This document shows, one piece after another, positions 3,443 through 43,530 of a DNA stretch of 64,000 bases. The DNA is from Naegleria gruberi (Eukaryota): the NCBI GenBank assembly GCA_000004985.1, contig GG738927.1; one strand, 5' to 3'. How positions within the stretch are numbered: the first letter of the stretch is position 1; every line of letters begins with the position of its first letter. A program made the translations under genes and the position numbers. The notes under the pieces were generated by a model. It was not told the DNA's origin, searched no databases, and was given only the letters and a program-made list of their open reading frames with translations.

Positions 3443-6073
3443 ATGCGAAAATTCTTAAACCTGGGAAAGAAAGGAACATCAACAAAGGACAATGACACCT
3501 CTTCAGCCATTCCGTATGATGAAATTATGGATCGGGTAAAGCAAGATCAAGAGGAAAATCAACAATTACAACAACAACAACATGAACCTCTTAGTACGGG
3601 TGATGATTTTATTCTTGCTTCACTTGTAGAATCAGGCTTTATTACAGGAAGTATTAAAACAGTTTATGAAAGAGGAAAGGAAGATACTTTTTATGAAAGT
3701 TTGGATAATTTTCTTGATAAACAAAAAACGGAAATTGAAACTATTTGTAGTTCTAATTATGAAGAGTTTTTAAAATCTGTTAGTCAATTGAAAAGTGTTA
3801 GAAGTGATGGTAAAATATTGAAAAAAAAGATTATTGGTCTTGATGAAGAAGTTCAAAAAGCTGGAAAGGAAGCTCTAGAATGTGGTAAACAACTTGTTTT
3901 ATATCGAAACATTGCTGAGAATATTCATTCAGCACTTCAAGTTGTTGATCTTTGTAAGCATGTTTCAACATTAGCAACAAAAGTACATCAACAAATTCAA
4001 GAAGAAAAATACTTTTCTGCTCTGAAAACTTTGGAACATTTAGAAAAATCGATAAGAACTGTTCACAAATTTAATTTTGCTAGATTTATTGAAAAACAAA
4101 TTCCAATTTTCAAGAGAAAAATCAAACAGAATGTTGAAAGAGATTTTAATCAATGGTTAGTGAATGTTAGAAATAAGAGTAGAGATATTGGTAAATCAAT
4201 GATTGAAATGCAATTTTCTTTAATGACTACTAATGGAGTTAAATATGACGATTTTGTCAAGACCAATAATTTCAATTTTACATTTCCAAATATTGATATT
4301 ATTAATGACAGCTTGACTGTATTTGATATTCTTGAAAAATATCAAGTTGAATTAACACCTGTATATACTTGTAAACATATTTATGAATCTATGGATTCAT
4401 ATGAACAATTCAAAGGTTACTATAAGAGAAATAGAACTATCCAGTTGAATCATGAAATTAATCATGCACCACTTCTCGAGCAAAAGAAATCAGACAAGGA
4501 TACATCCATTTACCCTGCCACTGTTCAAGAATGGCTTGAAAGAATAATTGGTTTCTTTACTGTAGAATCTGTTACCTTGAGAACAACTTCAAGTTTATTA
4601 TCAAATATTGAATTGAACTCTATGTGGGAACAATCATTGCAAAAAATTCTGACATCTATTGATGAACACTTGGCTATTCGTATGAATAATCCTAAAGAGT
4701 ACTTGAATATGAAGAAGTGTGTTTTAATTTTTAGTTTAACAGCCTCTGAACAATTGGGTCTTCACACATCATTATTGATTGATTTGTTAGCTCACTATAG
4801 AAGTGCCTTCTCTAACTCTATAGAATTTAAATCAATTAGTAATATTGAAGATAGTGATTGTAAGCAACCTTTTACTTGCCCAAGAACAGACAGTGCCGAA
4901 TACAAGGATTTGAAAAAGTATGGACTCATGCAAAATCCTAACAATTATATTGCCTTTTCTGAGATTGTTTTGACATTGGCAACAGAAGTGGAATCTTTCA
5001 TATTGGACTATGAAGTTTATTGTGATAGAATAGTCTCCTACACAACAAGTATCAAACAACTTAAGAGTGGTATTATGAAACTATTCGAACATGCTGTAAA
5101 ATGTTTAGATAAGGAGTTGAATAGTAGTACTGGAACTGGTATTGCTAGATATGTGCAAGTTGTTATTAATTATCAAGCCATTTCTGATTATATCATACCT
5201 TACTTTGAAGATTTTTATGGAAAGAGAGTTAAACAACAATCTACTTCCTCAACTACCTCTTCATCTAAGAACGCTGCCGTTTCTACCTCTGAATCATCAA
5301 CAATCACCTATTTCAAACAAGTTAGTATGCAAGTTCAACAATCTAAGGAAAGAGGAGAAAACTCAATCCTGAGAGAATTGACCTCCAAATGTTCTAAATT
5401 ATTAAGTTTTTGTCAAAATTTCTCATTTGCTCCTGAATATCAAGGAAACGGTGTTATTGGTACAATTACTGACAATTTTAAAACACTTGGTAATAACTTG
5501 GGTATCAATCAACAAGATCCAAAACAACAAATGTACAACGAACCTCATCAATTCGTATTCGACATGATTGAATATTTGGATAATGCTCATCGTACATTAC
5601 AGTATCTTAAGCAAGAGAAAAAGGATCAAATCATGTTCTCTGCATGTGATAGTATAGCTCGCTATTTGCAAAATGTAATAACAAAGGAAATGGAAATAAC
5701 AATGAAAGGAATTGTACCACTGTATAAGGATGTGCAATACTTACTCAAGTTTTGCAATGACACAGAGGGATTGAAGAATTGTGCCTCTTGTTTTGCAGAA
5801 TTAGATTGTGTATTACGTTTCCTGATTGACGAATCAAAATTTTCAGAGGAAGGTTTGGTTAGTTGTGATGAGGAGAATAGACAATTGATAGAACATGAAA
5901 AAGTAATGCAAGAAATTATTGCCAAATTCGAGAAGACTGACCTTAATCGTGACAAATCGTACCTCTTGAAGAGTGTTTTACAACATTTGAAGACTTCACG
6001 AATTGAATTTTTCAAGAGAACAGTCTTGAAGAAACCAGCACTTTTGAAGAATTTGAATTTATTCAAAAAATAA
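3443..6073 (+). CDS. sec15: Exocyst complex component Sec15 (EXOC6-like), single exon, 876 aa
   Basis: Single 876-aa ORF. Region KYFSALKTLEHLEKSIRTVHKFNFARFIEKQIPIFKRKIKQNVERDFNQWLVNVRNKSRDIGKSMIEM closely parallels the conserved Sec15 core (metazoan EXOC6: ...ALKTLEHLE..YLP.VS.YRFC..M...IP.LRE.IK...M.DL.DFLE.IR..SD.IGE.AM). Length is typical of Sec15. Confidence 0.8.
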   Translation: MRKFLNLGKKGTSTKDNDTSSAIPYDEIMDRVKQDQEENQQLQQQQHEPLSTGDDFILASLVESGFITGSIKTVYERGKEDTFYESLDNFLDKQKTEIETICSSNYEEFLKSVSQLKSVRSDGKILKKKIIGLDEEVQKAGKEALECGKQLVLYRNIAENIHSALQVVDLCKHVSTLATKVHQQIQEEKYFSALKTLEHLEKSIRTVHKFNFARFIEKQIPIFKRKIKQNVERDFNQWLVNVRNKSRDIGKSMIEMQFSLMTTNGVKYDDFVKTNNFNFTFPNIDIINDSLTVFDILEKYQVELTPVYTCKHIYESMDSYEQFKGYYKRNRTIQLNHEINHAPLLEQKKSDKDTSIYPATVQEWLERIIGFFTVESVTLRTTSSLLSNIELNSMWEQSLQKILTSIDEHLAIRMNNPKEYLNMKKCVLIFSLTASEQLGLHTSLLIDLLAHYRSAFSNSIEFKSISNIEDSDCKQPFTCPRTDSAEYKDLKKYGLMQNPNNYIAFSEIVLTLATEVESFILDYEVYCDRIVSYTTSIKQLKSGIMKLFEHAVKCLDKELNSSTGTGIARYVQVVINYQAISDYIIPYFEDFYGKRVKQQSTSSTTSSSKNAAVSTSESSTITYFKQVSMQVQQSKERGENSILRELTSKCSKLLSFCQNFSFAPEYQGNGVIGTITDNFKTLGNNLGINQQDPKQQMYNEPHQFVFDMIEYLDNAHRTLQYLKQEKKDQIMFSACDSIARYLQNVITKEMEITMKGIVPLYKDVQYLLKFCNDTEGLKNCASCFAELDCVLRFLIDESKFSEEGLVSCDEENRQLIEHEKVMQEIIAKFEKTDLNRDKSYLLKSVLQHLKTSRIEFFKRTVLKKPALLKNLNLFKK

Positions 6074-31197: not shown

Positions 31198-32257
31198 ATG
31201 AGCACACTTAGAGCACTATTATTAGGAGTCTATGGTTATTGGAATTATACAAAAGCTGGATTCGAGAGAAGACTCGGAAGCACCATATCAGATGAATCTG
31301 TAAAGAATGTTGGAACAATGACAAACAAAGTATGCATTGTTACTGGAGCAAATTCTGGTTTAGGTTAGTATTGTTGTTAACTGTTATTATTAACAAGTTG
31401 TATGATTAGGTTATCAGACATCTATTGATTTGGCCAAAAGAGGTTGTACATTGCATTTACTTTGTAGAAATGAAGAAAGAGGAAAGGAGGCAGTTCAAAA
31501 TATCATCAAGGAATCGAATAATGAACAAGTTTATTTACACATTGTGGATATGTCCTCTGTGAAGAGCATTAAACAATTCTTGGATAGTCAAATTGGCAAT
31601 ACAATTCCTAAACTCAATATTCTAGTTAATAATGCTGGAGCTATTGTGGAAAGGATTGATCCAGTGACTAAAACTGCTCAAGTTACCTTGAATGAGAATG
31701 GATATGAAAACAATTTCCTTGTAAATACTATTGGACCATATTACTTGACTAGAGAATTAATTAATTTCATGGAAGAGTCTGCCAAGAAAGACAAGGATGC
31801 AAGTAGAGTTATTTTTGTATCATCTGGTGGAATGCTTACTTCTAGATTGGATTTGAATAATTTACAAAATCAAGGATTTACTGGAGCTTCTGCTTATGCA
31901 CATTGCAAACGTCAATCATGTTGCATTACAGAAGAATGGGCCAAATTACATGACAAATCTCTAATAACATTCAATTCATGCCACCCTGGTTGGGTCGATA
32001 CTCCAGGTTTATCAATATCTCTTCCAACTTTCTATGAGAAATTGAAAGGAAATTTGAGAACATTGGAGCAAGGAGCTGATTGTCAACTCTATTTGGCTGT
32101 CAGTGATGAAGTGAAGGAATCTACAGGTCTCTTTTTCGAAGATCGTAAACCTGTCACTCCTCATTTCACTCTCGCCTTTACTCAAGAATCAGAACAAGAA
32201 CGTAAAGAACTCATCAAGAAGTGTGACTCCATTATCCAAGACTTGATGCTCAAATAA
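31198..32257 (+). CDS. Short-chain dehydrogenase/reductase (retinol-dehydrogenase / DHRS12-like); join(31198..31363,31410..32257), 337 aa
   Basis: Exon 1 ...VCIVTGANSGLG split by a 46-nt intron (GTTAGT...TTAG) in phase 1, continuing GYQTSIDLAKRGCTLHLLCRNEERGKEAV. Further on NNAG and YAHCK (catalytic YxxxK). Start taken at the second in-frame ATG (MSTLRALLL). Confidence 0.75.
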
Positions 32258-32514
32258 ACTTGTACACAAAAGATCTTTTATCAGTTCATTATCTCAATAT
32301 CTTATCTGCATGCGGCAGCACGAACCACCCTCCACGGAGTTGGGATAAACTGAGGAGGATGGAATAATGCAGTATCGAAAAACAGTTCTGCTCCACTACC
32401 TATTCAATATTTCAAAAAGGGTATTGCACCATTCTCTCCACCATGATTCTTCATCATTAAAAAAAAAAGCAAAGACCTGTCATCATCACCTTGCTCTCTT
32501 TAAAAACAGATCCA

Positions 32515-33852
32515 ATGCCAACCTGGAAAGAAAAAGCCAAAATATATTGGAGGTGAGTGTGTTTATAATATCTTTAAATATTTATTGGATTTTTATTCTA
32601 AACATACGATGTGAATGTTGTGAAATGATAAAAGACATCCCGATATTCACGTCTACTGGAGAGCCATCCTTGCCGAATTGCTTGGAACCGCAATTGTAAG
32701 TTATCAACTCGTTGAATTTTAATGGGAGAGAAAATTGATGAAAATCATGCAACTACAACCATGATGGGGTTGTGAATTAAATGATGCCCTTCTTGTAATC
32801 TTCAAAAAATTGCATTTTCATTGCACTGCTACCAATGACTTATAGTTTGTCTTTCTGGGTACTTCGAGTGCTGTGTTTGCCAATAAGAATGAACCAGTAA
32901 CTGTGGCATTGGGACATATTTTCGGATTGTTGGTGTGTATTCACATTTTCGGTCCAATTTCTGGAGCTCACTTTAATTGTGCAGGTTAGTAGTTGTGGGA
33001 TTTATGGATTTATTGATTTGGTTTTTGTTTAATGTTTGATGTGTAATTATTGTGTGAAATAATGAATAATGGATATTTATGGAAATTAATAGTTACTTTT
33101 GGAGCCCTTATTACAAGAAATATTGGTCTTGTATCTGGTATTGTGTATATGATTGCTCAAATTGTTGGAAGTATTGTTGGAGCTGCATTGACCACCTTAA
33201 TTGGTAAAACTGTTGTTCCAGGAATTTTCAAACCACCAGAAGATATTGATGATGCCTGGAGAGGATTTGCATTGGAAATTATCTTGACATTTGTTTTGGT
33301 TTTGGCTATATTTGGTGCTGCTGTCAAACCTCAACATTTCAAGAAATCTAATGGACTTCACTCAATTACTGGTTTGATTGCTGCCTTCCCCATTGCATTT
33401 GCTTTAGGAGCTGGTAAGTATTTGAATAATTTCAATAGTGATGGAATTTAATTTCTAAAGATGCTATGGCTGGTGCCTTAACTGGAGCTTCAATGAATCC
33501 TGCAAGAGCTTTTGTAAGTTTTCACACAAATTTCACAATTTACAAAATTTCCTTAACTTGAATTATTGAAATATTTGCTCAATTTTAACATTTACGAAAA
33601 CAACAGGGTCCACAAGTTGTTGGAGGTGTTTGGTATGCTCATTCATGGATCTATTATACAGCACCATTTATTGGAGCTGCCCTTGGAGCAATTGTTTATG
33701 AATTCTTACTTACCAAACCAAAGAAATTACAACACTACACTTCACTTTTACATATTAATACAAATTATGATGATTCAGATGATGAAAAGGATCAAGAAGA
33801 AGATCTTAGAAGCCAACAAAGCAATGCCTTATTATATACCACTAATCATTAA
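32515..33852 (+). CDS. Aquaporin / major intrinsic protein, 6 exons join(32515..32552,32635..32695,32846..32984,33093..33413,33461..33513,33607..33852), 285 aa; first NPA box reads NCA
   Basis: Exon 2 encodes HPDIHVYWRAILAELLGTAI (classic MIP N-terminus). Exon 3 ...GHIFGLLVCIHIFGPISGAHFNCA. Exon 4 VTFGALITRNIGLVSGIVYMIAQIVGSIVGAAL.... Exon 5 DAMAGALTGASMNPARAF (second NPA box). Exon 6 GPQVVGGVWYAHSWIYYTAPFIGAALGAIVYEF. All introns GTAAGT/GTTAGT...AG with consistent phases. Exon 1 (MPTWKEKAKIYW) is the least certain. Confidence 0.75.
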
Positions 33853-34645
33853 GAATTTTATTAGAGAAATAACAATTTTGGTGTGACATGTTAGTGTCAA
33901 CATTGGAAATTCAATGATTGAAATAAAAAATACTATATATGAATTATTTGAATCATTCATGATACTTTTCTTTCACCAATAACTTCAAGTGAAAGTCTGA
34001 AAATTATCACCTTGAAGTTTTTGATCAACAAGTTGTAAAATTTTCAAACTCAAAAACACAAGTGTTTCAATAAGTCTAACGATCATCTATTTGGTAACTG
34101 CCATTTCACCACATTCATATGTTAAAGAGAGAGAGATACCTTCTTGTTCCTCCAAGATGAGGACTATCATTAATGGGTACCTTTAAGGTAAATTACATTA
34201 CACCTTTCATTACCCATATCACAATACAGTTGGTTATAGACGTTATGAGATTGTTCCTTCTCATTAAACGACGTAGTGATTGTTGTCGCATCTCAGAGAT
34301 CTCACAACACCTCATCTTAATGAAACGCGAAAGTTTCAAGAGCACAATCCTCAGAGATCCTCAATCACATGAAGAGAGCGTTTCGTACTGATGGATTATT
34401 AAGGTAAGCAAACTTGGTAAAATTCTTACTGTTACTACATCAAACGAGATGGCTGCCCATTAGGAAGTCCTAACTTGCACATCTTTTTCCAAAGAGTGAG
34501 TCCGTTGTTTTCTTGAAGGGAACAATAGAATCTCTTTCCAAGTGGGAACATGTTGCTGTTGTGGAGAATTGAGACAACAATGCTCCACTAGAGGTGTACT
34601 GAGTTTGGCTGGCTTGCTCTCTATTCCCACACCACTCAAAACAAA

Positions 34646-35161
34646 ATGACTCTACAAGAGCCACAAGAAGAGAGCCAAATCACTTTTACACACACTCAAT
34701 TACCATCGATGATGAACCATGCTGCAAACAGCAGTGGAATACAATTGAGGTTAGATATTGAGGATCTGTTAAGGGAGTATGTAGCCTTAATGCAGGCATC
34801 TGCTCCAATTGCTTCTACTAATTCTACCATGGAACAGTTCTTCCACCAATCGAACAGCCCTTCTCATCACAGTAATTTATCAAATGATATAGATAATGTG
34901 TATTACTGTAAAACAGTAAGCCCAAATAATTCTGTAAATGTCTCTGAACAGCAGGTTACCAATACTATTACACTTCAACAAGACATTGTTCAAGATCGTG
35001 AGCAACAAGCAAAGAAGGGAAATTCCAAAAGGAAAAGTTCCGTTGATGATAAGCCAAATTATTCCAAATCCAAGGTAGGCAAAACACGAAGAAGAAAGAG
35101 CAAACTTCCAGGTGAATCAGAATTTAAATTATGGACTTGGATTGGAGAGAAGAGTTTATAG
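34646..35161 (+). CDS. Hypothetical protein, paralogue of 25044..25976, ending in basic K-LPGES...W-x-W motif
   Basis: 171-aa ORF. Shares RLDIEDLL and C-terminal KTRRRKSKLPGESEFKLWTWIGEKSL with the minus-strand gene at 25 kb. Confidence 0.45.
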   Translation: MTLQEPQEESQITFTHTQLPSMMNHAANSSGIQLRLDIEDLLREYVALMQASAPIASTNSTMEQFFHQSNSPSHHSNLSNDIDNVYYCKTVSPNNSVNVSEQQVTNTITLQQDIVQDREQQAKKGNSKRKSSVDDKPNYSKSKVGKTRRRKSKLPGESEFKLWTWIGEKSL

Positions 35162-37913: not shown

Positions 37914-38900
37914 ATGGATACCACTGATGAACCAGAGTTCGTATTTGACAATGACTACATCCAGCATGTAGATATTGCCATGGACTACGCTGACAGCGGG
38001 GAGTGTATTTTTTCTGATAATGAAGGCAATCTTCAAGGAAGTATTCACTTAATCACTGAAAGTCATACAAGCAAAACTTTGAGCGGCAGTGTGAAGAAAG
38101 CCATTCAAACTTCCTCCCGATCTGTGTGCCGTCTCTATGTACTATACAAGTCAGATTGTAATAAGGGTATAAGATCATTTGGTACAGCTTTCTTTGTATC
38201 TGAGTCATTATTAATGACTGCCCAACATTGCATCAAGCCTTCTCATACAATAGATGGGGTCGTGTACTTCTTAAAAAGTACATACATTGATCTTTCCTGT
38301 TGTTCTAGAGACTCACAATTTGAAATTGATGACTCTAGTTTGATAAAGAAGGTGCAAATTGTAGATAGAAGCAATTTTGAGAAAGATATCCAACAATTGA
38401 AGATGCCTGGAAAGGATGTTCCATGGAAGACTAGCAACGACTTCGCATTTCTAGAACTTGACCAAAGGAACCTCACCACCCCCTTCATACCTGTTGAAAC
38501 AACATTAGAGGGTAATCAGTGTTATGTTATTGGGTATCCCGGCACTATTTCTATTGAAAAATTCAAAAAGGATTATTGCAGAGATTTAGATGATACCAAA
38601 TCTAACCAATTGTGGGGAAAAGTTCAGCGTGAAATGGGCTATTTTGAATGCAAAATTGCCAGCCAAGGAACGTTTCAAGTTAAAACTGGAGATTATTTGT
38701 ACACACATAATTGTCCTACTTTGTGTGGAACAAGCGGTGCTCCGGTTGTAAATGAAAATGGGAAGTTAATTGGAATTCATGTGGGTGGAGACTATGCATT
38801 ACACAATAATTTCTGGATAACTATTTCCAATCAACATTTGAAGAGTGCTCTCATTTCTATGAAAGTTTGTTCTGATCAATCCTTTGTATCGCTCCAATAA
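37914..38900 (+). CDS. Trypsin-like (chymotrypsin-fold, Trypsin_2/PF13365-like) serine peptidase, 328 aa, no signal peptide
   Basis: FGTAFFVSESLLMTAQHCI (His-box TAxHC) and CGTSGAPVVNENGKLIGIHVGG (Ser-box G-[DT]-SG-[GA]-P followed by G.H.G, typical of HtrA/V8-like trypsin_2 domains). Confidence 0.55.
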   Translation: MDTTDEPEFVFDNDYIQHVDIAMDYADSGECIFSDNEGNLQGSIHLITESHTSKTLSGSVKKAIQTSSRSVCRLYVLYKSDCNKGIRSFGTAFFVSESLLMTAQHCIKPSHTIDGVVYFLKSTYIDLSCCSRDSQFEIDDSSLIKKVQIVDRSNFEKDIQQLKMPGKDVPWKTSNDFAFLELDQRNLTTPFIPVETTLEGNQCYVIGYPGTISIEKFKKDYCRDLDDTKSNQLWGKVQREMGYFECKIASQGTFQVKTGDYLYTHNCPTLCGTSGAPVVNENGKLIGIHVGGDYALHNNFWITISNQHLKSALISMKVCSDQSFVSLQ

Positions 38901-39440: not shown

Positions 39441-41480
39441 TTATTGGTAGTGGAATTTGGTAGAAGAAGTGGGAATTACAGGAAGTTTGATTCTAGTTTC
39501 GGTACATTCGTGTGTAGAGAAATCTCTTCTCTTGATATCCTTGTGGCAAGAAGGACAATGAGTTTCATATTCTGAAAGATCAACTTGTTTGGCAACTTTA
39601 AGATCATATTCCAATTCATTTCCAGAGTGGCAGATTTGATTATGTTTGGAATAGTCGCATCTCTGTACGAGGCATCCACAATAGAGACAGATGATGCTCG
39701 AAGTTTTCAACCTGTTGGAAAGGTCTCTTCTCTGCTCTAGGATTTCATCAATTGATTGGGAATAGTCAATTGGCTTTACATTTTCGAGTGACTTATCCAT
39801 AAGTACTTGACTTTCTAACACTTGCAAGTCGACCTTATTTGCATATTTTGATTGCATGCTTTGCAGTGCTGGAGTGTGCTTTCTTGGCACGAGGCATACT
39901 TTTGCTGGTTTGGCATATCCAGACATAAACTCTAATAATTTATCCAATTCTGGGTTTTGTTCTCTGCAGTCGCCATATCCTCGAATACACAAACTCTTAA
40001 GGAATGAACGTCCTGCCCCGCCCTCTTTAAATACAAATAAAAGAGTCTCGATTAGTTTGGAACTCAATTCGCCATATGAAAAAGAACGAATGGATAGATC
40101 CAATTCCTCTAAGGTCTTTAAGGAATACAAGCTATTTTGCAACAAGTCAATATCATTTTCATTATCCACATGACATGAAAATAGCTTAATATTTGGGAAG
40201 TGTGTTATCCATCTATCTATTCTATTGGTAAAGAATGAACGTCCCTCCAATTTGAGTTCCAAAACATTTGGAAGTTCTTTCAGGTTTGGATCTGAGGTGA
40301 GGAATATTGGAGAGCTGTGTCTCATCAATGCAAAATCAAAGACACCGTCCAGATTTATGGACAGCTTCTTGACGCATTTGAATTTTGCTAAGAGTTCCAG
40401 AAAGGCCTTCGTCATTTCCACTGTATCAAAAATAGACAATGATTCTTCCCAATACGAATATTGAACTGTTCCAAGTGTAACTTCCAGCTCCTCCACAATA
40501 TTATTTGAGGTAGATGAGAGTTGATTCAACTGAGCTGCTTTGGTATAATTGAGATGAAGACTCAATTTCTTACAATTAGAAAGATTATTCAATTCAAAAA
40601 ACTTTGGTCCAATATACATTGATTCCAATACATTTGATGCAATACTATATTCAGTGTCATGATATAGATATTTGAGATTTTCAAATTCTGAAGTATTGGT
40701 AAGTAAAAAACCAGTGACATTGTCAAGGACTAGATTTTCCAACTTGTCCTTCACCCAATCAAAACACTGACAAAAAGGTTGATCAACCTTACATGTTTTC
40801 AATACTACTGTTTGTAAATTATCTTTACAAGCTTTGAATAAATTGCAAAATGCATTCGAATCAAAATTAAAATCCAACTTGATGAATGAACAATTGGTTG
40901 GATAGGATGTTTCCATTGAGAATGTTGGTTCTGTGAAATAGTTTGGCAAGTAGTTGACCACTCTTTGTGAAAATTCCTTCTTTCTTTGTTGATGAAGAGA
41001 TGGGAAATGAGTATTCCTTGGACGTGATGGAGCATACCTATCTAGATTAGCTTCCTGAATACTCCCATAGATGAATAGATTGAAAATCTTCATCCTATTA
41101 CTCTCCACAAACTTGTGCAAATACTTTACGAAGGGAATAATATCCTTCTCAATCATCATGTGTTTTTGATATTGCTCCTCCTTCTCACTACTAAATAAAT
41201 GATCAAAATCACCACCATACAAATCAATATTCGGATAGATGTGCAATGTATTAATTTGTTGAATGATAATTTCTCTCCATGATGAACACACCCGAGGAAT
41301 GATCATCATGATTGATCTAAAATCCAGATAGGATATGATTGAGTAGAGTACTTCTGGAGGAACCCTCGAATGAAACCAACCACCTGATCGTTGTTGCTCA
41401 TCTTCATCATTCTCTTCATGAATCGTTGTTCTTGTTATAGGAGATGAATTGAACATTTTTTTGATTCTGTCTTCAATCAA
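39441..41480 (-). CDS. F-box protein with LRR-like middle and C-terminal TRAF-type/C2HC zinc-finger-like Cys/His cluster, 679 aa
   Basis: N-terminal VPPEVLYSIISYLDFRSIMMIIPRVCSSWREII (canonical F-box). C-terminus CLYCGCLVQRCDYSKHNQICHSGNELEYD...HCPSCHKDIKRRDFSTHEC (two C-x2-C...H-x3-C units as in TRAF-type zinc fingers). Confidence 0.55.
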   Translation of the reverse strand: MIEDRIKKMFNSSPITRTTIHEENDEDEQQRSGGWFHSRVPPEVLYSIISYLDFRSIMMIIPRVCSSWREIIIQQINTLHIYPNIDLYGGDFDHLFSSEKEEQYQKHMMIEKDIIPFVKYLHKFVESNRMKIFNLFIYGSIQEANLDRYAPSRPRNTHFPSLHQQRKKEFSQRVVNYLPNYFTEPTFSMETSYPTNCSFIKLDFNFDSNAFCNLFKACKDNLQTVVLKTCKVDQPFCQCFDWVKDKLENLVLDNVTGFLLTNTSEFENLKYLYHDTEYSIASNVLESMYIGPKFFELNNLSNCKKLSLHLNYTKAAQLNQLSSTSNNIVEELEVTLGTVQYSYWEESLSIFDTVEMTKAFLELLAKFKCVKKLSINLDGVFDFALMRHSSPIFLTSDPNLKELPNVLELKLEGRSFFTNRIDRWITHFPNIKLFSCHVDNENDIDLLQNSLYSLKTLEELDLSIRSFSYGELSSKLIETLLFVFKEGGAGRSFLKSLCIRGYGDCREQNPELDKLLEFMSGYAKPAKVCLVPRKHTPALQSMQSKYANKVDLQVLESQVLMDKSLENVKPIDYSQSIDEILEQRRDLSNRLKTSSIICLYCGCLVQRCDYSKHNQICHSGNELEYDLKVAKQVDLSEYETHCPSCHKDIKRRDFSTHECTETRIKLPVIPTSSTKFHYQ

Positions 41481-41949: not shown

Positions 41950-43530
41950 TTAATCATTAGATCTACGCTTAGACATTGGTGAAATGAAGGATCTGAGAGC
42001 ATCAGCATTATTGGCTTGAGCAGGCTTTCTGTGATTGAGTGGAACATACTTTCTATGGTCAATACCAGTATAGACTTGCTTTGGTCTGAAAATCTTGACT
42101 TCAGGATCTTCCAAACTTTCAATCCAGTGAGCTAACCAACCAGCACATCTTGGAATGAGGAAAAGAACTGGATAATAGTCAGCTGGGAAACCTAAACACT
42201 TGTAAACCAAACCAGTGTAAAAGTCAACATTTGGATACAATTTACGTTCCTTAAAGTATGGATCATTGAGGGCAATTTGTTCGAGTTCAACAGCAATTTC
42301 AATCATTGGTTCCTTGCCCAAAACTTGGAAGACTTCATCGGCAACCTTCTTGACAATCTTGGCACGAGGGTCATATGAACGATAAATTCTGTGACCAAAG
42401 CCCATCAATTTCTTCTTTCTTTGTTTGACTTCTTCAATGAATTTTGGAATATTTTCCTTTGTTCCAATTTCTTCCAACATGTGAAGAACAGCTTCACAAG
42501 CACCACCGTGCAATGGACCATACAAGGCACCAGCTGTTAATTTACATTCCATTAAATTATTATAGAAATATTAAAATATATCATTTGATATTTTGATAAA
42601 TTACTTACATGCACCAGCAATTGAGGTGTATGGATCAACTCTACTACTGCTCAAGTGACGCATAGCAGCAGTGGAACAGTTCATTTCATGTTCTGCGTGA
42701 ATAATCCACAATTTTTCAAGAGCACGAGCAAGAACTGGATTTGGATGATAGTTGACTTCACTCAATCTGTCCAACATGTACAAGAAGTTACCAGTATAGT
42801 TAAGGTTATTGACAGGATTATTGTAAGGTTTACCAATTCTGTGACGATAAGCACTGGCAGCAATGGTTGGCAACTTTCCGAGAATACGATAAATTTGCTT
42901 AAATCTAAGTGAGTCAACCTTGACACAATCCTTATCAGCACCCTTCAAGAACAAATCAGATCCTTGGAGGGATGGATTAGCATCTTCATAGAAAGTACCC
43001 ATGGCAGCAATTGATGAAATAACCATTCCCATAGGGTGAGCATCATATCTAAATTGTTTCAACAAGGTGACCATGTTTTCGTGGAGATAGGAGTGTTTAG
43101 TAACTCTTTCTTCCCATAAATTCAATTGATTTCTATCTGGAAGTTCACCATTGATTAACAAGAAGGCAACTTCAAGGAATGATGATTTTTCGGCCAATTC
43201 TTCAATATCATATCCACGATAACGTAAAATACCTTTTTCACCATCAATATATGAAATACTACTTCTAGAAATGGCTGTATTCATAAATCCAGGATCCAAA
43301 CAAACAAGATCCAATTGTTCAAAAGCAACTGATCTGATGGCATTTCCTTCTTCTACATTAATTTTGATGATTTTTCCAGTCTTTGAATCCTTAACTTCAA
43401 GGAAACGTTTTTCACCAGGATTTGATGGAGCAGTAGCACTAGTCAAATTAGTGCTCAACATTTCTCCTCCAACAACTTGAGGCATCAAGTGTTGTTTAAT
43501 TGATTGCATTCTACGTTCAGCTGAAGACAT
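41950..43530 (-). CDS. Citrate synthase, bacterial/glyoxysomal type II, with PTS2-like N-terminal extension; complement(join(41950..42533,42609..43530)), about 501 aa
   Basis: Exon 1 has [32 protein letters not shown] and [30 protein letters not shown]. Exon 2 has [22 protein letters not shown]...[18 protein letters not shown]...[36 protein letters not shown]. These are the catalytic His/Asp context of GltA-type citrate synthase. A 75-nt intron (GTAAGT...AACAG) in phase 1. The N-terminal [15 protein letters not shown] fits the PTS2 nonapeptide pattern R-x-x-x-I-K-x-H-L. Confidence 0.85.

What the first reader, a model, noticed from the sequence alone, without database searches (positions are those of the whole stretch)
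32846..33513. Aquaporin whose first NPA box reads NCA while the second is canonical NPARAF
Exon 3 ends ...GPISGAHFNCA and exon 4 continues VTFGALI..., so the first hemi-helix signature is Asn-Cys-Ala. The second box (TGASMNPARAF) is standard. Known deviations are mostly NPC/NPS/NPT. A Cys at position 2 places a thiol next to the selectivity constriction and could confer redox or Hg sensitivity or altered solute selectivity.
Basis: seen in the sequence. Interest (0 to 1): 0.55.

Follow-up and report, generated by a model that had tools for sequence, protein, structure and literature searches.

The report
Naegleria aquaporin with NCA box
A water-channel gene of the amoeba Naegleria gruberi really does carry Asn-Cys-Ala in place of the usual first Asn-Pro-Ala signature, but the same change recurs in related amoebae, a dinoflagellate and dozens of bacteria, so it is a rare, tolerated variant rather than a new kind of channel.

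Summary
Window 32515-33852 (+) holds a six-exon, all GT-AG gene for a 285-aa MIP/aquaporin. It is identical to Naegleria gruberi XP_002669389.1 (JGI 75649), which has already been listed as one of two N. gruberi aquaporins. The first box is N77-C78-A79 (TGT at 32978-32980) and the second is NPARAF.

The Cys is not an error or a splice artefact:
- A Pro codon would need two base changes.
- Two tandem paralogs on an environmental Naegleria-like contig read NCAVTF (TGT) inside a single exon, and two further assemblies (99.2% and 99.7% identical) agree.
- The N. fowleri ortholog has NTA.
- dN/dS among these genes is 0.11-0.18 with saturated dS.

NCA is not unique. A dinoflagellate double-MIP carries it in both halves. 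At least 79 bacterial MIPs are NCA/NPA, including bona fide AqpZ orthologs and Sphingobacterium GlpF-like channels.

AlphaFold gives the canonical fold, with C78 as the first residue of half-helix B. The predicted ar/R filter is H57/A188/A196/R202, which is TIP3/AQP8-like.

Most likely this is a working channel in which a small residue replaces the half-helix N-cap proline, as in AQP7 (NAA), TbAQP2 (NSA) and PfAQP (NLA). A thiol-specific role (Hg or redox sensitivity) is untested. Interest is low to moderate.

The parts
32515..32552 (+). Exon 1 (ATG; MPTWKEKAKIYW + 2 nt of R13)
   Evidence: Splice model. The translation equals XP_002669389.1.
32635..32695 (+). Exon 2 (R13..I33; start of TM1)
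   Evidence: The intron positions are shared with N. fowleri and the environmental copies.
32846..32984 (+). Exon 3: TM1-TM2 and loop B up to N77-C78-A79 plus the first base of V80. It includes H57 (32915-32917, predicted ar/R TM2 position) and C64 (32936-32938).
32975..32983 (+). First signature box AAT TGT GCA = Asn77-Cys78-Ala79 (canonical NPA)
   Evidence: The alignment column is Pro in 116 of 117 homologs. The AlphaFold half-helix B starts at residue 78.
32985..33092 (+). Intron 3 (108 nt, GT-AG, phase 1). It sits 4 nt downstream of the intron in the N. fowleri and N. lovaniensis orthologs. If retained, a stop follows immediately (GGT TAG).
33093..33413 (+). Exon 4: half-helix B, TM3, TM4 and most of TM5
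33461..33513 (+). Exon 5: end of TM5 (A188, 33463-33465), A196 (33487-33489), second box N199-P200-A201 (33496-33504) and R202 (33505-33507)
33607..33852 (+). Exon 6: rest of half-helix E, TM6, acidic C-terminal tail and TAA stop

Best explanation
This is a genuine gene under purifying selection for a major intrinsic protein (aquaporin) of Naegleria gruberi. In it, the proline that normally caps half-helix B (position 2 of the first NPA box) has been replaced by cysteine. The pore-forming asparagines (N77, N199), the second box (NPA) and the filter arginine (R202) are all intact, and the predicted fold is the canonical hourglass. The protein should therefore still work as a passive channel. 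Its predicted ar/R filter (H57/A188/A196/R202) resembles plant TIP3 and animal AQP8, which suggests water plus small neutral solutes such as NH3, H2O2 or urea. A role in Naegleria's contractile-vacuole water handling is plausible but inferred. The Cys is a lineage-specific state shared by N. gruberi and an environmental Naegleria-like amoeba. N. fowleri has Thr and the sister genus Willaertia keeps Pro. The same Pro-to-Cys change has been fixed independently in a dinoflagellate MIP and in whole clades of bacterial AqpZ and GlpF-like channels. This argues that a small residue here is structurally tolerated. It would pack against the opposite box's proline or hydrogen-bond locally, as Ser131 does in TbAQP2, rather than creating a new mechanism.

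Shown: the sequence, the conservation, the selection signal, the fold and the recurrence. Inferred: channel activity, solute range, side-chain orientation and cellular role.
For: - **Gene model and identity to XP_002669389.1:**
- **Family membership:** Pfam MIP 4e-50. The best solved relatives are AQP4, AQP5, AQP2, AQP1 and TIP2;1 (E 1e-32 to 1e-25), against aquaglyceroporins at 1e-10 or weaker.
- **Fold:** AlphaFold pLDDT 87.4 and pTM 0.81, with half-helices starting at C78 and P200. Foldseek TM-scores (normalised to target) are 0.8-0.89 to AQP0/1/2/4/5, TIP2;1 and NIP2;1.
- **N. fowleri ortholog:** 70% identical, with NTA (codon ACT). The 27-residue block around the box is otherwise identical. 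An independent N. fowleri assembly gives the same result.
- **Environmental contig L004:** two tandem paralogs, both NCA (TGT) within one exon. Contigs L005 and L006 are 99.2% and 99.7% identical and encode the same NCA.
- **Selection:** dN/dS is 0.11-0.18 with dS of 1.4-2.0 for all pairs.
- **Phylogeny:** an NJ tree places these genes in one clade with 100% bootstrap support, sister to the Willaertia ortholog, which has NPA.
- **Recurrence elsewhere:** Yihiella double-MIP has NCA twice. At least 79 full-length bacterial MIPs are NCA/NPA, and one passes the NCBIfam AqpZ equivalog cut-off at 348 against 256 bits.
- **ar/R assignment:** from the 117-sequence alignment.
- **Position-2 residue:** Pro is the structural N-cap, and AQP7 is naturally NAA (PMC10010469). 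TbAQP2 Ser131 (NSA) makes no substrate contacts and stabilises the region by hydrogen bonds (PMC12803511).
- **Prior listing:** the gene is listed as one of two N. gruberi aquaporins in the contractile-vacuole paper (PMC10002747).
Against: - No transcript or protein evidence for N. gruberi was available here, and the cluster of this protein holds only the genome model.
- No permeability data exist.
- Cys is kept (always as TGT) in three gene copies that are separated by saturated synonymous divergence. It has also been fixed repeatedly elsewhere, although Pro to Cys needs two base changes. This could mean that Cys is positively favoured for thiol chemistry rather than merely tolerated.
- In TbAQP2, reverting NSA/NPS to NPA/NPA cut pentamidine uptake by 95%, so position-2 changes can affect transport indirectly.
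- Model coordinates could not be inspected. The orientation of the C78 side chain and its distance from C64 and P200 are therefore inferred from homologs.
Confidence: 0.7

Rival explanations
1. Functional thiol: Cys78 is selected for its chemistry. It would act as a redox, persulfidation or heavy-metal sensor that gates the pore from the junction of the two half-helices, or it would tune solute selectivity.
For: Cys (TGT) is retained in N. gruberi and in both environmental paralogs despite dS above 1.3. Pro-to-Cys, a two-step change, has been fixed independently in at least five lineages. The ar/R filter is TIP/AQP8-like, a class known from general knowledge to pass H2O2. A second clade-specific Cys (C64 in TM2) accompanies it in the Naegleria orthogroup.
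Against: N. fowleri has Thr at this position within an otherwise identical 27-residue block, so the orthogroup does not need a thiol. The equivalent Ser131 of TbAQP2 does not face the substrate path. I ran no comparable scan for other residues at this position, so enrichment of Cys over Ser, Thr or Ala is not demonstrated. There are no functional data.
Confidence: 0.2
2. Artefact: a sequencing or assembly error at TGT, or a mis-predicted splice junction. The real protein would then have NPA.
For: Only one N. gruberi assembly and no transcript were available. The intron sits 4 nt away from its position in N. fowleri.
Against: TGT is two substitutions from any CCN codon. No CCN-GCN-G sequence lies near either splice site, and intron retention gives an immediate stop. 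My model equals the independent JGI/NCBI model. The environmental paralogs encode NCAVTF in one uninterrupted exon, in three assemblies. N. fowleri also lacks Pro, in two assemblies.
Confidence: 0.02
3. Decaying or neofunctionalised non-channel paralog: loss of the N-cap proline marks a MIP that no longer conducts. It would be a pseudogene in progress, or a protein with a structural or adhesive role like some unorthodox MIPs.
For: This heterolobosean clade shows unusual drift in pore signatures. The environmental copies have NPN as the second box. The Willaertia ortholog has NPV followed by Met in place of the filter Arg. P0005 has NPAH.
Against: The ORF and all splice sites are intact. dN/dS is 0.17 against N. 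fowleri. Both Asn residues, R202, Q102 and E141 are conserved. The canonical fold is predicted with confidence. NCA occurs in bona fide AqpZ orthologs across many alphaproteobacterial genomes. Natural NAA, NSA and NLA channels conduct.
Confidence: 0.08

Closest known systems
Human AQP7 (NAA/NPS)
   Same: In the wild type, the proline of the first (loop B) box is naturally replaced by a small residue (Ala), and the protein is a working channel (PMC10010469).
   Different: AQP7 is an aquaglyceroporin and also changes the second box (NPS). The Naegleria protein is far closer to the AQP4/AQP1/TIP class (E 1e-32 against 1e-10 to AQP7), keeps NPA in box 2 and has Cys rather than Ala.
Trypanosoma brucei TbAQP2 (NSA/NPS) and Plasmodium PfAQP (NLA/NPS)
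   Same: These are protist MIPs with a non-Pro residue at position 2 of the first box. In the structures, the Asn and Ala rotamers are unchanged. The Ser stabilises the region by hydrogen bonds without touching the substrate (PMC12803511). The one-step ancestor inferred for Naegleria's C (TGT) and T (ACT) states would be Ser (TCT), that is NSA.
   Different: Both are aquaglyceroporins. TbAQP2 has also lost the ar/R arginine and has a very wide pore. The Naegleria protein keeps R202 and a canonical second box.
Plant TIP3 / animal AQP8 class
   Same: These are the best overall sequence neighbours outside Heterolobosea (37-40% identity). They share a His at the TM2 ar/R position, Ala at LE1 and Arg at LE2. 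The AtTIP2;1 structure is among the top fold matches.
   Different: TIPs and AQP8 have NPA/NPA and Ile or Val at the TM5 filter position, where Naegleria has A188. Naegleria also has an 11-residue longer loop D region and an acidic C-terminal tail.
AQP11 (NPC/NPA)
   Same: It has a cysteine inside the first signature box.
   Different: The Cys is at position 3 (replacing Ala), not position 2. AQP11 belongs to the divergent 'unorthodox' subfamily (PMC10010469).
Bacterial NCA/NPA channels found here (alphaproteobacterial AqpZ; Sphingobacterium GlpF/LarD-like)
   Same: They have exactly the same N-C-A-V-T first box with a canonical second box, fixed across many species.
   Different: They are of independent origin, with only about 30% identity to the Naegleria protein. 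They belong to the prokaryotic AqpZ and glycerol-facilitator subfamilies and are uncharacterised with respect to the Cys.

Membership tests
Major intrinsic protein / aquaporin superfamily (Pfam PF00230) | Significant match to the MIP profile over the whole domain | tested here: met
   171 bits against a gathering cut-off of 25, residues 20-235 on profile positions 7-222 of 222. NCBIfam TIGR00861 scores 129 bits, below its strict 171 cut-off.
Major intrinsic protein / aquaporin superfamily (Pfam PF00230) | Hourglass fold: six TM helices plus two re-entrant half-helices | tested here: met
   The AlphaFold model has pLDDT 87.4. Its helices are 21-44, 50-72, [78-86], 92-117, 131-157, 169-189, [200-210] and 219-239. 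Foldseek TM-scores (normalised to target) are 0.8-0.89 to many solved aquaporins.
Major intrinsic protein / aquaporin superfamily (Pfam PF00230) | Two Asn-Pro-Ala boxes at the N-termini of the half-helices | tested here: not met
   Both Asn residues are present (N77, N199). Box 2 is NPA but box 1 is NCA. This feature is typical rather than obligatory: AQP7 has NAA, TbAQP2 NSA and PfAQP NLA, and all are accepted members.
Major intrinsic protein / aquaporin superfamily (Pfam PF00230) | Conserved arginine after the second box (ar/R LE2) | tested here: met
   R202 is present. The column is Arg in 111 of 117 homologs.
Major intrinsic protein / aquaporin superfamily (Pfam PF00230) | Tetrameric channel that conducts water or small neutral solutes | not testable with these tools
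   This needs expression and permeability assays.
Water-selective/TIP-AQP8-like branch as opposed to aquaglyceroporins | Closer in sequence to AQP/TIP than to GlpF/AQP3/7/9/10, with no Asp after NPAR | tested here: met
   AQP4/5/2/1 and TIP2;1 score E 1e-32 to 1e-25, against AQP7, AQP3 and GlpF at 1e-10 to 1e-6. The second box reads NPARAF, not NPARD.
TIP3/AQP8-type selectivity filter (H-I-A/G-R) | His at TM2, Ile or Val at TM5, Ala or Gly at LE1, Arg at LE2 | tested here: inconclusive
   H57, A196 and R202 fit, but the TM5 position is A188 rather than Ile or Val. The assignment comes from a sequence alignment only. A pairwise HMMER alignment placed gaps differently.
Known 'position-2' NPA variants (AQP7 NAA, TbAQP2 NSA, PfAQP NLA) | Non-Pro at position 2 of the loop-B box in an otherwise intact MIP | tested here: met
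   C78. This is a shared feature only, not common descent, because those proteins are aquaglyceroporins.

The most novel reading that the evidence does not exclude
The cysteine at the junction of the two half-helices may be a selected, chemically active residue: a built-in redox, persulfide or metal switch in a TIP/AQP8-like (possibly H2O2- or NH3-conducting) channel. It would have been acquired convergently by Naegleria, a dinoflagellate and several bacterial AqpZ and GlpF clades, so that 'NCA aquaporins' form a functional class of gated channels that has gone unnoticed.
Probability: 0.12. Interest if true: 0.6.

Novelty: new member of a known kind. Interest (0 to 1): 0.27.

Why it matters
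The NPA proline is usually treated as near-invariant. This case, together with the bacterial and dinoflagellate cases found along the way, shows that Pro-to-Cys at the first box is a naturally recurring, clade-fixed state in otherwise orthodox channels. That offers ready-made natural experiments, such as AqpZ orthologs with NCA against E. coli AqpZ, on what the N-cap proline contributes and on whether a thiol at the pore centre confers Hg or redox sensitivity. For Naegleria biology, the gene is one of only two aquaporins available for contractile-vacuole water handling. The pathogen N. fowleri carries a different residue (Thr) at the same site. None of this changes the understanding of how aquaporins work unless the thiol proves to be functional.

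Tried and rejected
1. **Profile survey of NCA across the 5.8-billion-protein database.** I built short synthetic peptide profiles (A3, A4). A local test of padded 40-column profiles showed that the scores collapse, so I abandoned this route.
2. **Metagenome DNA scan for GPISGAH[F/L]N.** No new heterolobosean relatives turned up. It was useful only as a rough background: none of 121 boxes lacked Pro at position 2.
3. **N. lovaniensis ortholog.** The assembly has a run of N exactly over the exon that holds the box, so its residue is unknown. The codon ends in T, followed by a GTAAGT donor. The annotated 216-aa model therefore starts artificially.
4. **Willaertia locus.** The exact look-up failed, so intron positions could not be polarised.
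5. **Literature.** Searches for NCA together with NPA and aquaporin(s) returned only an NMR paper in which NCA is an experiment name. Searching the gene's accessions found only the contractile-vacuole preprint table.
6. **First ar/R guess.** My first guess (F59/D187), taken from a gapped pairwise alignment, was replaced by H57/A188 from the 117-sequence alignment.
7. **Genomic context.** There is no second MIP gene in the window. The neighbours are a short-chain dehydrogenase, a trypsin-like peptidase, an F-box-like protein and citrate synthase, with no functional link. Synteny with N. fowleri (Rad10 and others upstream) is not conserved.

Full report
**What is in the window.** The region is AT-rich eukaryotic DNA (about 34% G+C) with short GT-AG introns. 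Reading 31800-34800 and assembling exons by eye and by script gives a six-exon gene on the + strand. The exons are 32515-32552, 32635-32695, 32846-32984, 33093-33413, 33461-33513 and 33607-33852. The introns are 82, 150, 108, 47 and 93 nt long. The gene encodes 285 residues. Exon 3 ends ...CAC TTT AAT TGT GCA G and exon 4 begins TT ACT TTT, so the first signature box is N77-C78-A79, with the TGT codon at 32978-32980. The second box (TGASMNPARAF, N199-P200-A201 at 33496-33504) is canonical.

**Identity.** The protein is 100% identical over its full length to the Naegleria gruberi predicted protein XP_002669389.1 / EFC36645.1 / NAEGRDRAFT_75649. The window is therefore N. gruberi, and an independent annotation pipeline reached the same splice model. 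The protein matches Pfam MIP (PF00230) at 171 bits. By sequence it is closest to solved AQP4, AQP5, AQP2, AQP1 and TIP2;1 (E 1e-32 to 1e-25) and much further from aquaglyceroporins (1e-10 or weaker). A preprint on Naegleria contractile vacuoles already lists JGI 75649 / XP_002669389.1 as one of two N. gruberi aquaporins (PMC10002747). It does not discuss the motif, and no other paper in the library names the gene.

**Is NCA real?** Several independent lines say it is.
- Any proline codon (CCN) is two substitutions from TGT.
- No alternative GT/AG combination near the junction can supply CCN-GCN. Retaining intron 3 gives GGT TAG, an immediate stop.
- The N. fowleri ortholog (XP_044569512.1, 284 aa, 70% identical) reads NTA, with codon ACT, in the reference assembly. 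An independent read-archive assembly agrees. The 27-residue block GPISGAHFN-x-AVTFGALITRNIGL is otherwise identical between the two species.
- The exhaustive representative search turned up an environmental fragment with NCA. Its 7.9-kb metagenome contig (L004) carries two tandem paralogs, which I spliced into complete ORFs. Both read AAT TGT GCT GTT ACA/ACT TTC, that is NCAVTF, within a single exon. The box therefore does not depend on any splice prediction.
- Two further assemblies of that organism (L005 and L006) are 99.2% and 99.7% identical in DNA and encode the same NCA.

Pairwise Nei-Gojobori estimates among N. gruberi, N. fowleri and the two environmental copies give dN/dS of 0.11-0.18, with synonymous sites saturated at dS 1.4-2.0. 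All four genes are therefore under purifying selection. The Cys has also persisted in three copies over long divergence.

**Evolutionary picture.** An NJ tree places N. gruberi, N. fowleri, N. lovaniensis and the two environmental copies in one clade with 100% bootstrap support (242 columns, 200 bootstraps). The sister group contains the Willaertia magna ortholog, which keeps NPA in box 1. The order inside the Naegleria clade is unresolved (52% support). The second Naegleria/Willaertia paralog group is NPA/NPA. The proline was therefore lost on the stem of the Naegleria orthogroup. Cys (TGT) and Thr (ACT) are each one step from Ser (TCT), which is itself one step from Pro (CCT), so an NSA intermediate is the most economical inference. 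The N. lovaniensis state is hidden by an assembly gap.

**How unusual is NCA?**
- Among the 117 best homologs, the column is Pro in 116.
- Across about 270 first boxes collected from all hits, 234 are NPA. Most deviations are at position 3: 10 NPS, 10 NPV, and a few NPI, NPG and NPT. Position-2 deviants are few: NCA, NTA, NSA, NQA and NLC.
- NCA is nevertheless not unique. A two-domain MIP from the dinoflagellate Yihiella yeosuensis has NCA in both halves, with NPT second boxes.
- A scan of one genome per prokaryotic species for S-G-[GA]-H-x-N-C-A-V-T returned 93 sites. Of these, 79 lie in full-length MIP ORFs with a canonical second box. About 39 are in Sphingobacterium or Parapedobacter (PYSGAHLNCAVT ... 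NPARDLGP, glycerol-facilitator/LarD-like). About 38 are alphaproteobacterial or Xanthobacteraceae proteins (GHISGGHFNCAVT). Single cases occur in Chthoniobacterales and Acidobacteriota.
- One alphaproteobacterial example scores 348 bits on the NCBIfam AqpZ equivalog model, against a cut-off of 256.

Pro-to-Cys at this site has thus been fixed independently at least five times. It has occurred in both water-channel and glycerol-channel backgrounds, and it is inherited by whole genera.

**Structure and likely mechanism.** AlphaFold2, run with the 117-sequence alignment, gives a confident canonical model (mean pLDDT 87.4, pTM 0.81). It has six TM helices and two short re-entrant helices that begin exactly at C78 (78-86) and P200 (200-210), and pLDDT is about 94 around the box. 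Foldseek against the PDB returns AQP0/1/2/4/5, AtTIP2;1, SoPIP2;1 and a NIP, with TM-scores (normalised to target) of 0.8-0.89.

In the large alignment the four aromatic/arginine filter positions map as follows:
- H57 falls in a column that is His in TIPs, AQP8 and heterolobosean MIPs, and Phe in AQP1/4/5.
- A188 falls in a column that is Ile or Val in TIP/AQP8 and His in AQP1/4/5.
- A196 and R202 complete the filter.

This H-A-A-R filter is TIP3/AQP8-like with an even smaller TM5 residue. It fits the fact that TIP3 proteins are the best non-heterolobosean hits. From general knowledge of those classes, it suggests water plus small neutral solutes (NH3, H2O2, urea). This is inference only.

The literature held here describes the box proline as the N-cap of the half-helix and notes that human AQP7 is naturally NAA (PMC10010469). 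In the TbAQP2 cryo-EM structures, the Ser of NSA touches neither glycerol nor drugs and instead stabilises the region by hydrogen bonds. Even so, converting NSA/NPS to NPA/NPA lowered pentamidine uptake by 95% (PMC12803511).

My best reading is therefore as follows. The channel works in the usual way, with the two Asn residues and R202 doing the selective work. C78 is a tolerated small replacement at the half-helix N-terminus that packs against P200. Any effect on permeability would be indirect.

**Rivals.**
- **Thiol-specific role (redox, persulfide or Hg gating).** This cannot be excluded. It gains some weight from the long retention of Cys and its repeated independent fixation despite needing two mutations. 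It loses weight because N. fowleri has Thr in an otherwise identical block. I also could not show that Cys is enriched over other small residues.
- **Sequencing or splice artefact.** Effectively refuted.
- **Decaying or non-channel paralog.** Contradicted by the selection signal, the intact key residues and the existence of NCA AqpZ orthologs. The heterolobosean clade does show notable drift in pore signatures, with NPN, NPV and loss of the filter Arg in the Willaertia ortholog.

**Comparison and novelty.** The closest known analogues in mechanism are the position-2 variants AQP7 (NAA/NPS), TbAQP2 (NSA/NPS) and PfAQP (NLA/NPS). All of these are aquaglyceroporins that also alter box 2, whereas the Naegleria protein is on the AQP/TIP side and keeps NPA in box 2. 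AQP11 has a Cys in the box, but at position 3. The gene is already in the databases and has been catalogued as an aquaporin. What seems not to have been remarked on, within the searchable literature, is the NCA state and its recurrence. I class it as a new member of a known kind, namely MIPs with a degenerate first NPA box, and score interest at about 0.27. It is a tidy natural variant with easy experiments attached, not a surprise to the field unless the thiol proves to be functional.

Noticed in passing
window 32985-33092, compared with L002 3475-3592 and L001 ~3925-4015: The intron inside the signature box sits at different places in close relatives. N. fowleri and N. lovaniensis split N-x|A (phase 0), while N. 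gruberi splits 4 nt downstream after GCA G (phase 1). The two environmental paralogs have no intron there. Other introns in this gene also come and go between species: PPT|E only in N. fowleri and N. lovaniensis, RAF|GPQ only in N. gruberi and the environmental copies, YYT|APF only in N. lovaniensis, and one 42-nt intron only in envB. This points to intron sliding or repeated gain and loss.
   Followed up: partly
L004 1552-2467 and 5882-6927 (JGI metagenome 3300002220 contig, 7869 bp): These are two tandem paralogs of the Naegleria aquaporin in an environmental Naegleria-like amoeba. They are 76% identical to each other, and both have NCA in box 1 and the unusual NPN in box 2 (SGACMNPNRAF).
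   Followed up: partly
L128-L220 (prokaryotic genome contigs), e.g. L148, L131, L143, L162: At least 79 bacterial MIPs carry NCA/NPA. They include AqpZ orthologs in Xanthobacteraceae and other Alphaproteobacteria, a GlpF/LarD-like channel across the genus Sphingobacterium, and single cases in Chthoniobacterales and Acidobacteriota. The Cys codon is TGT in 47 and TGC in 32.
   Followed up: partly
protein P0145 (Yihiella yeosuensis transcriptome, 543 aa): This dinoflagellate protein is made of two fused MIP domains. Each has NCA as the first box and NPT as the second.
   Followed up: no
proteins P0003/P0123 (Willaertia magna), P0005, P0276, P0127 (Acrasis kona): Heterolobosean relatives show unusual drift in pore signatures. 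The Willaertia ortholog is NPA/NPV, with Met in place of the ar/R arginine (NPVMNMGP). P0005 has NPAH, P0276 has NPI/NPV and Acrasis has NPV/NPA.
   Followed up: no
L001 ~3914-3923 (N. lovaniensis PYSW02000021.1): A run of N in the N. lovaniensis assembly removes the exon holding the first box. The annotated protein XP_044548798.1 (216 aa) is therefore truncated and begins with a spurious MNTDK read from intron sequence.
   Followed up: yes
window 32936-32938 (C64): A second cysteine, in TM2 (LLVCIHIFGP), is specific to the Naegleria orthogroup. It is Cys in N. gruberi, N. fowleri and both environmental copies, but Ala, Met, Leu or Val in 117 other MIPs.
   Followed up: no
window 31430-32257, 37914-38900, 39441-41480, 42601-43530: The neighbouring ORFs are a short-chain dehydrogenase (+), a trypsin-like peptidase (+), an F-box-like protein (-) and a citrate synthase C-terminal domain (-). 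They have no evident link to the aquaporin. The gene order differs from that in N. fowleri and N. lovaniensis, where Rad10/ERCC1 lies upstream.
   Followed up: partly
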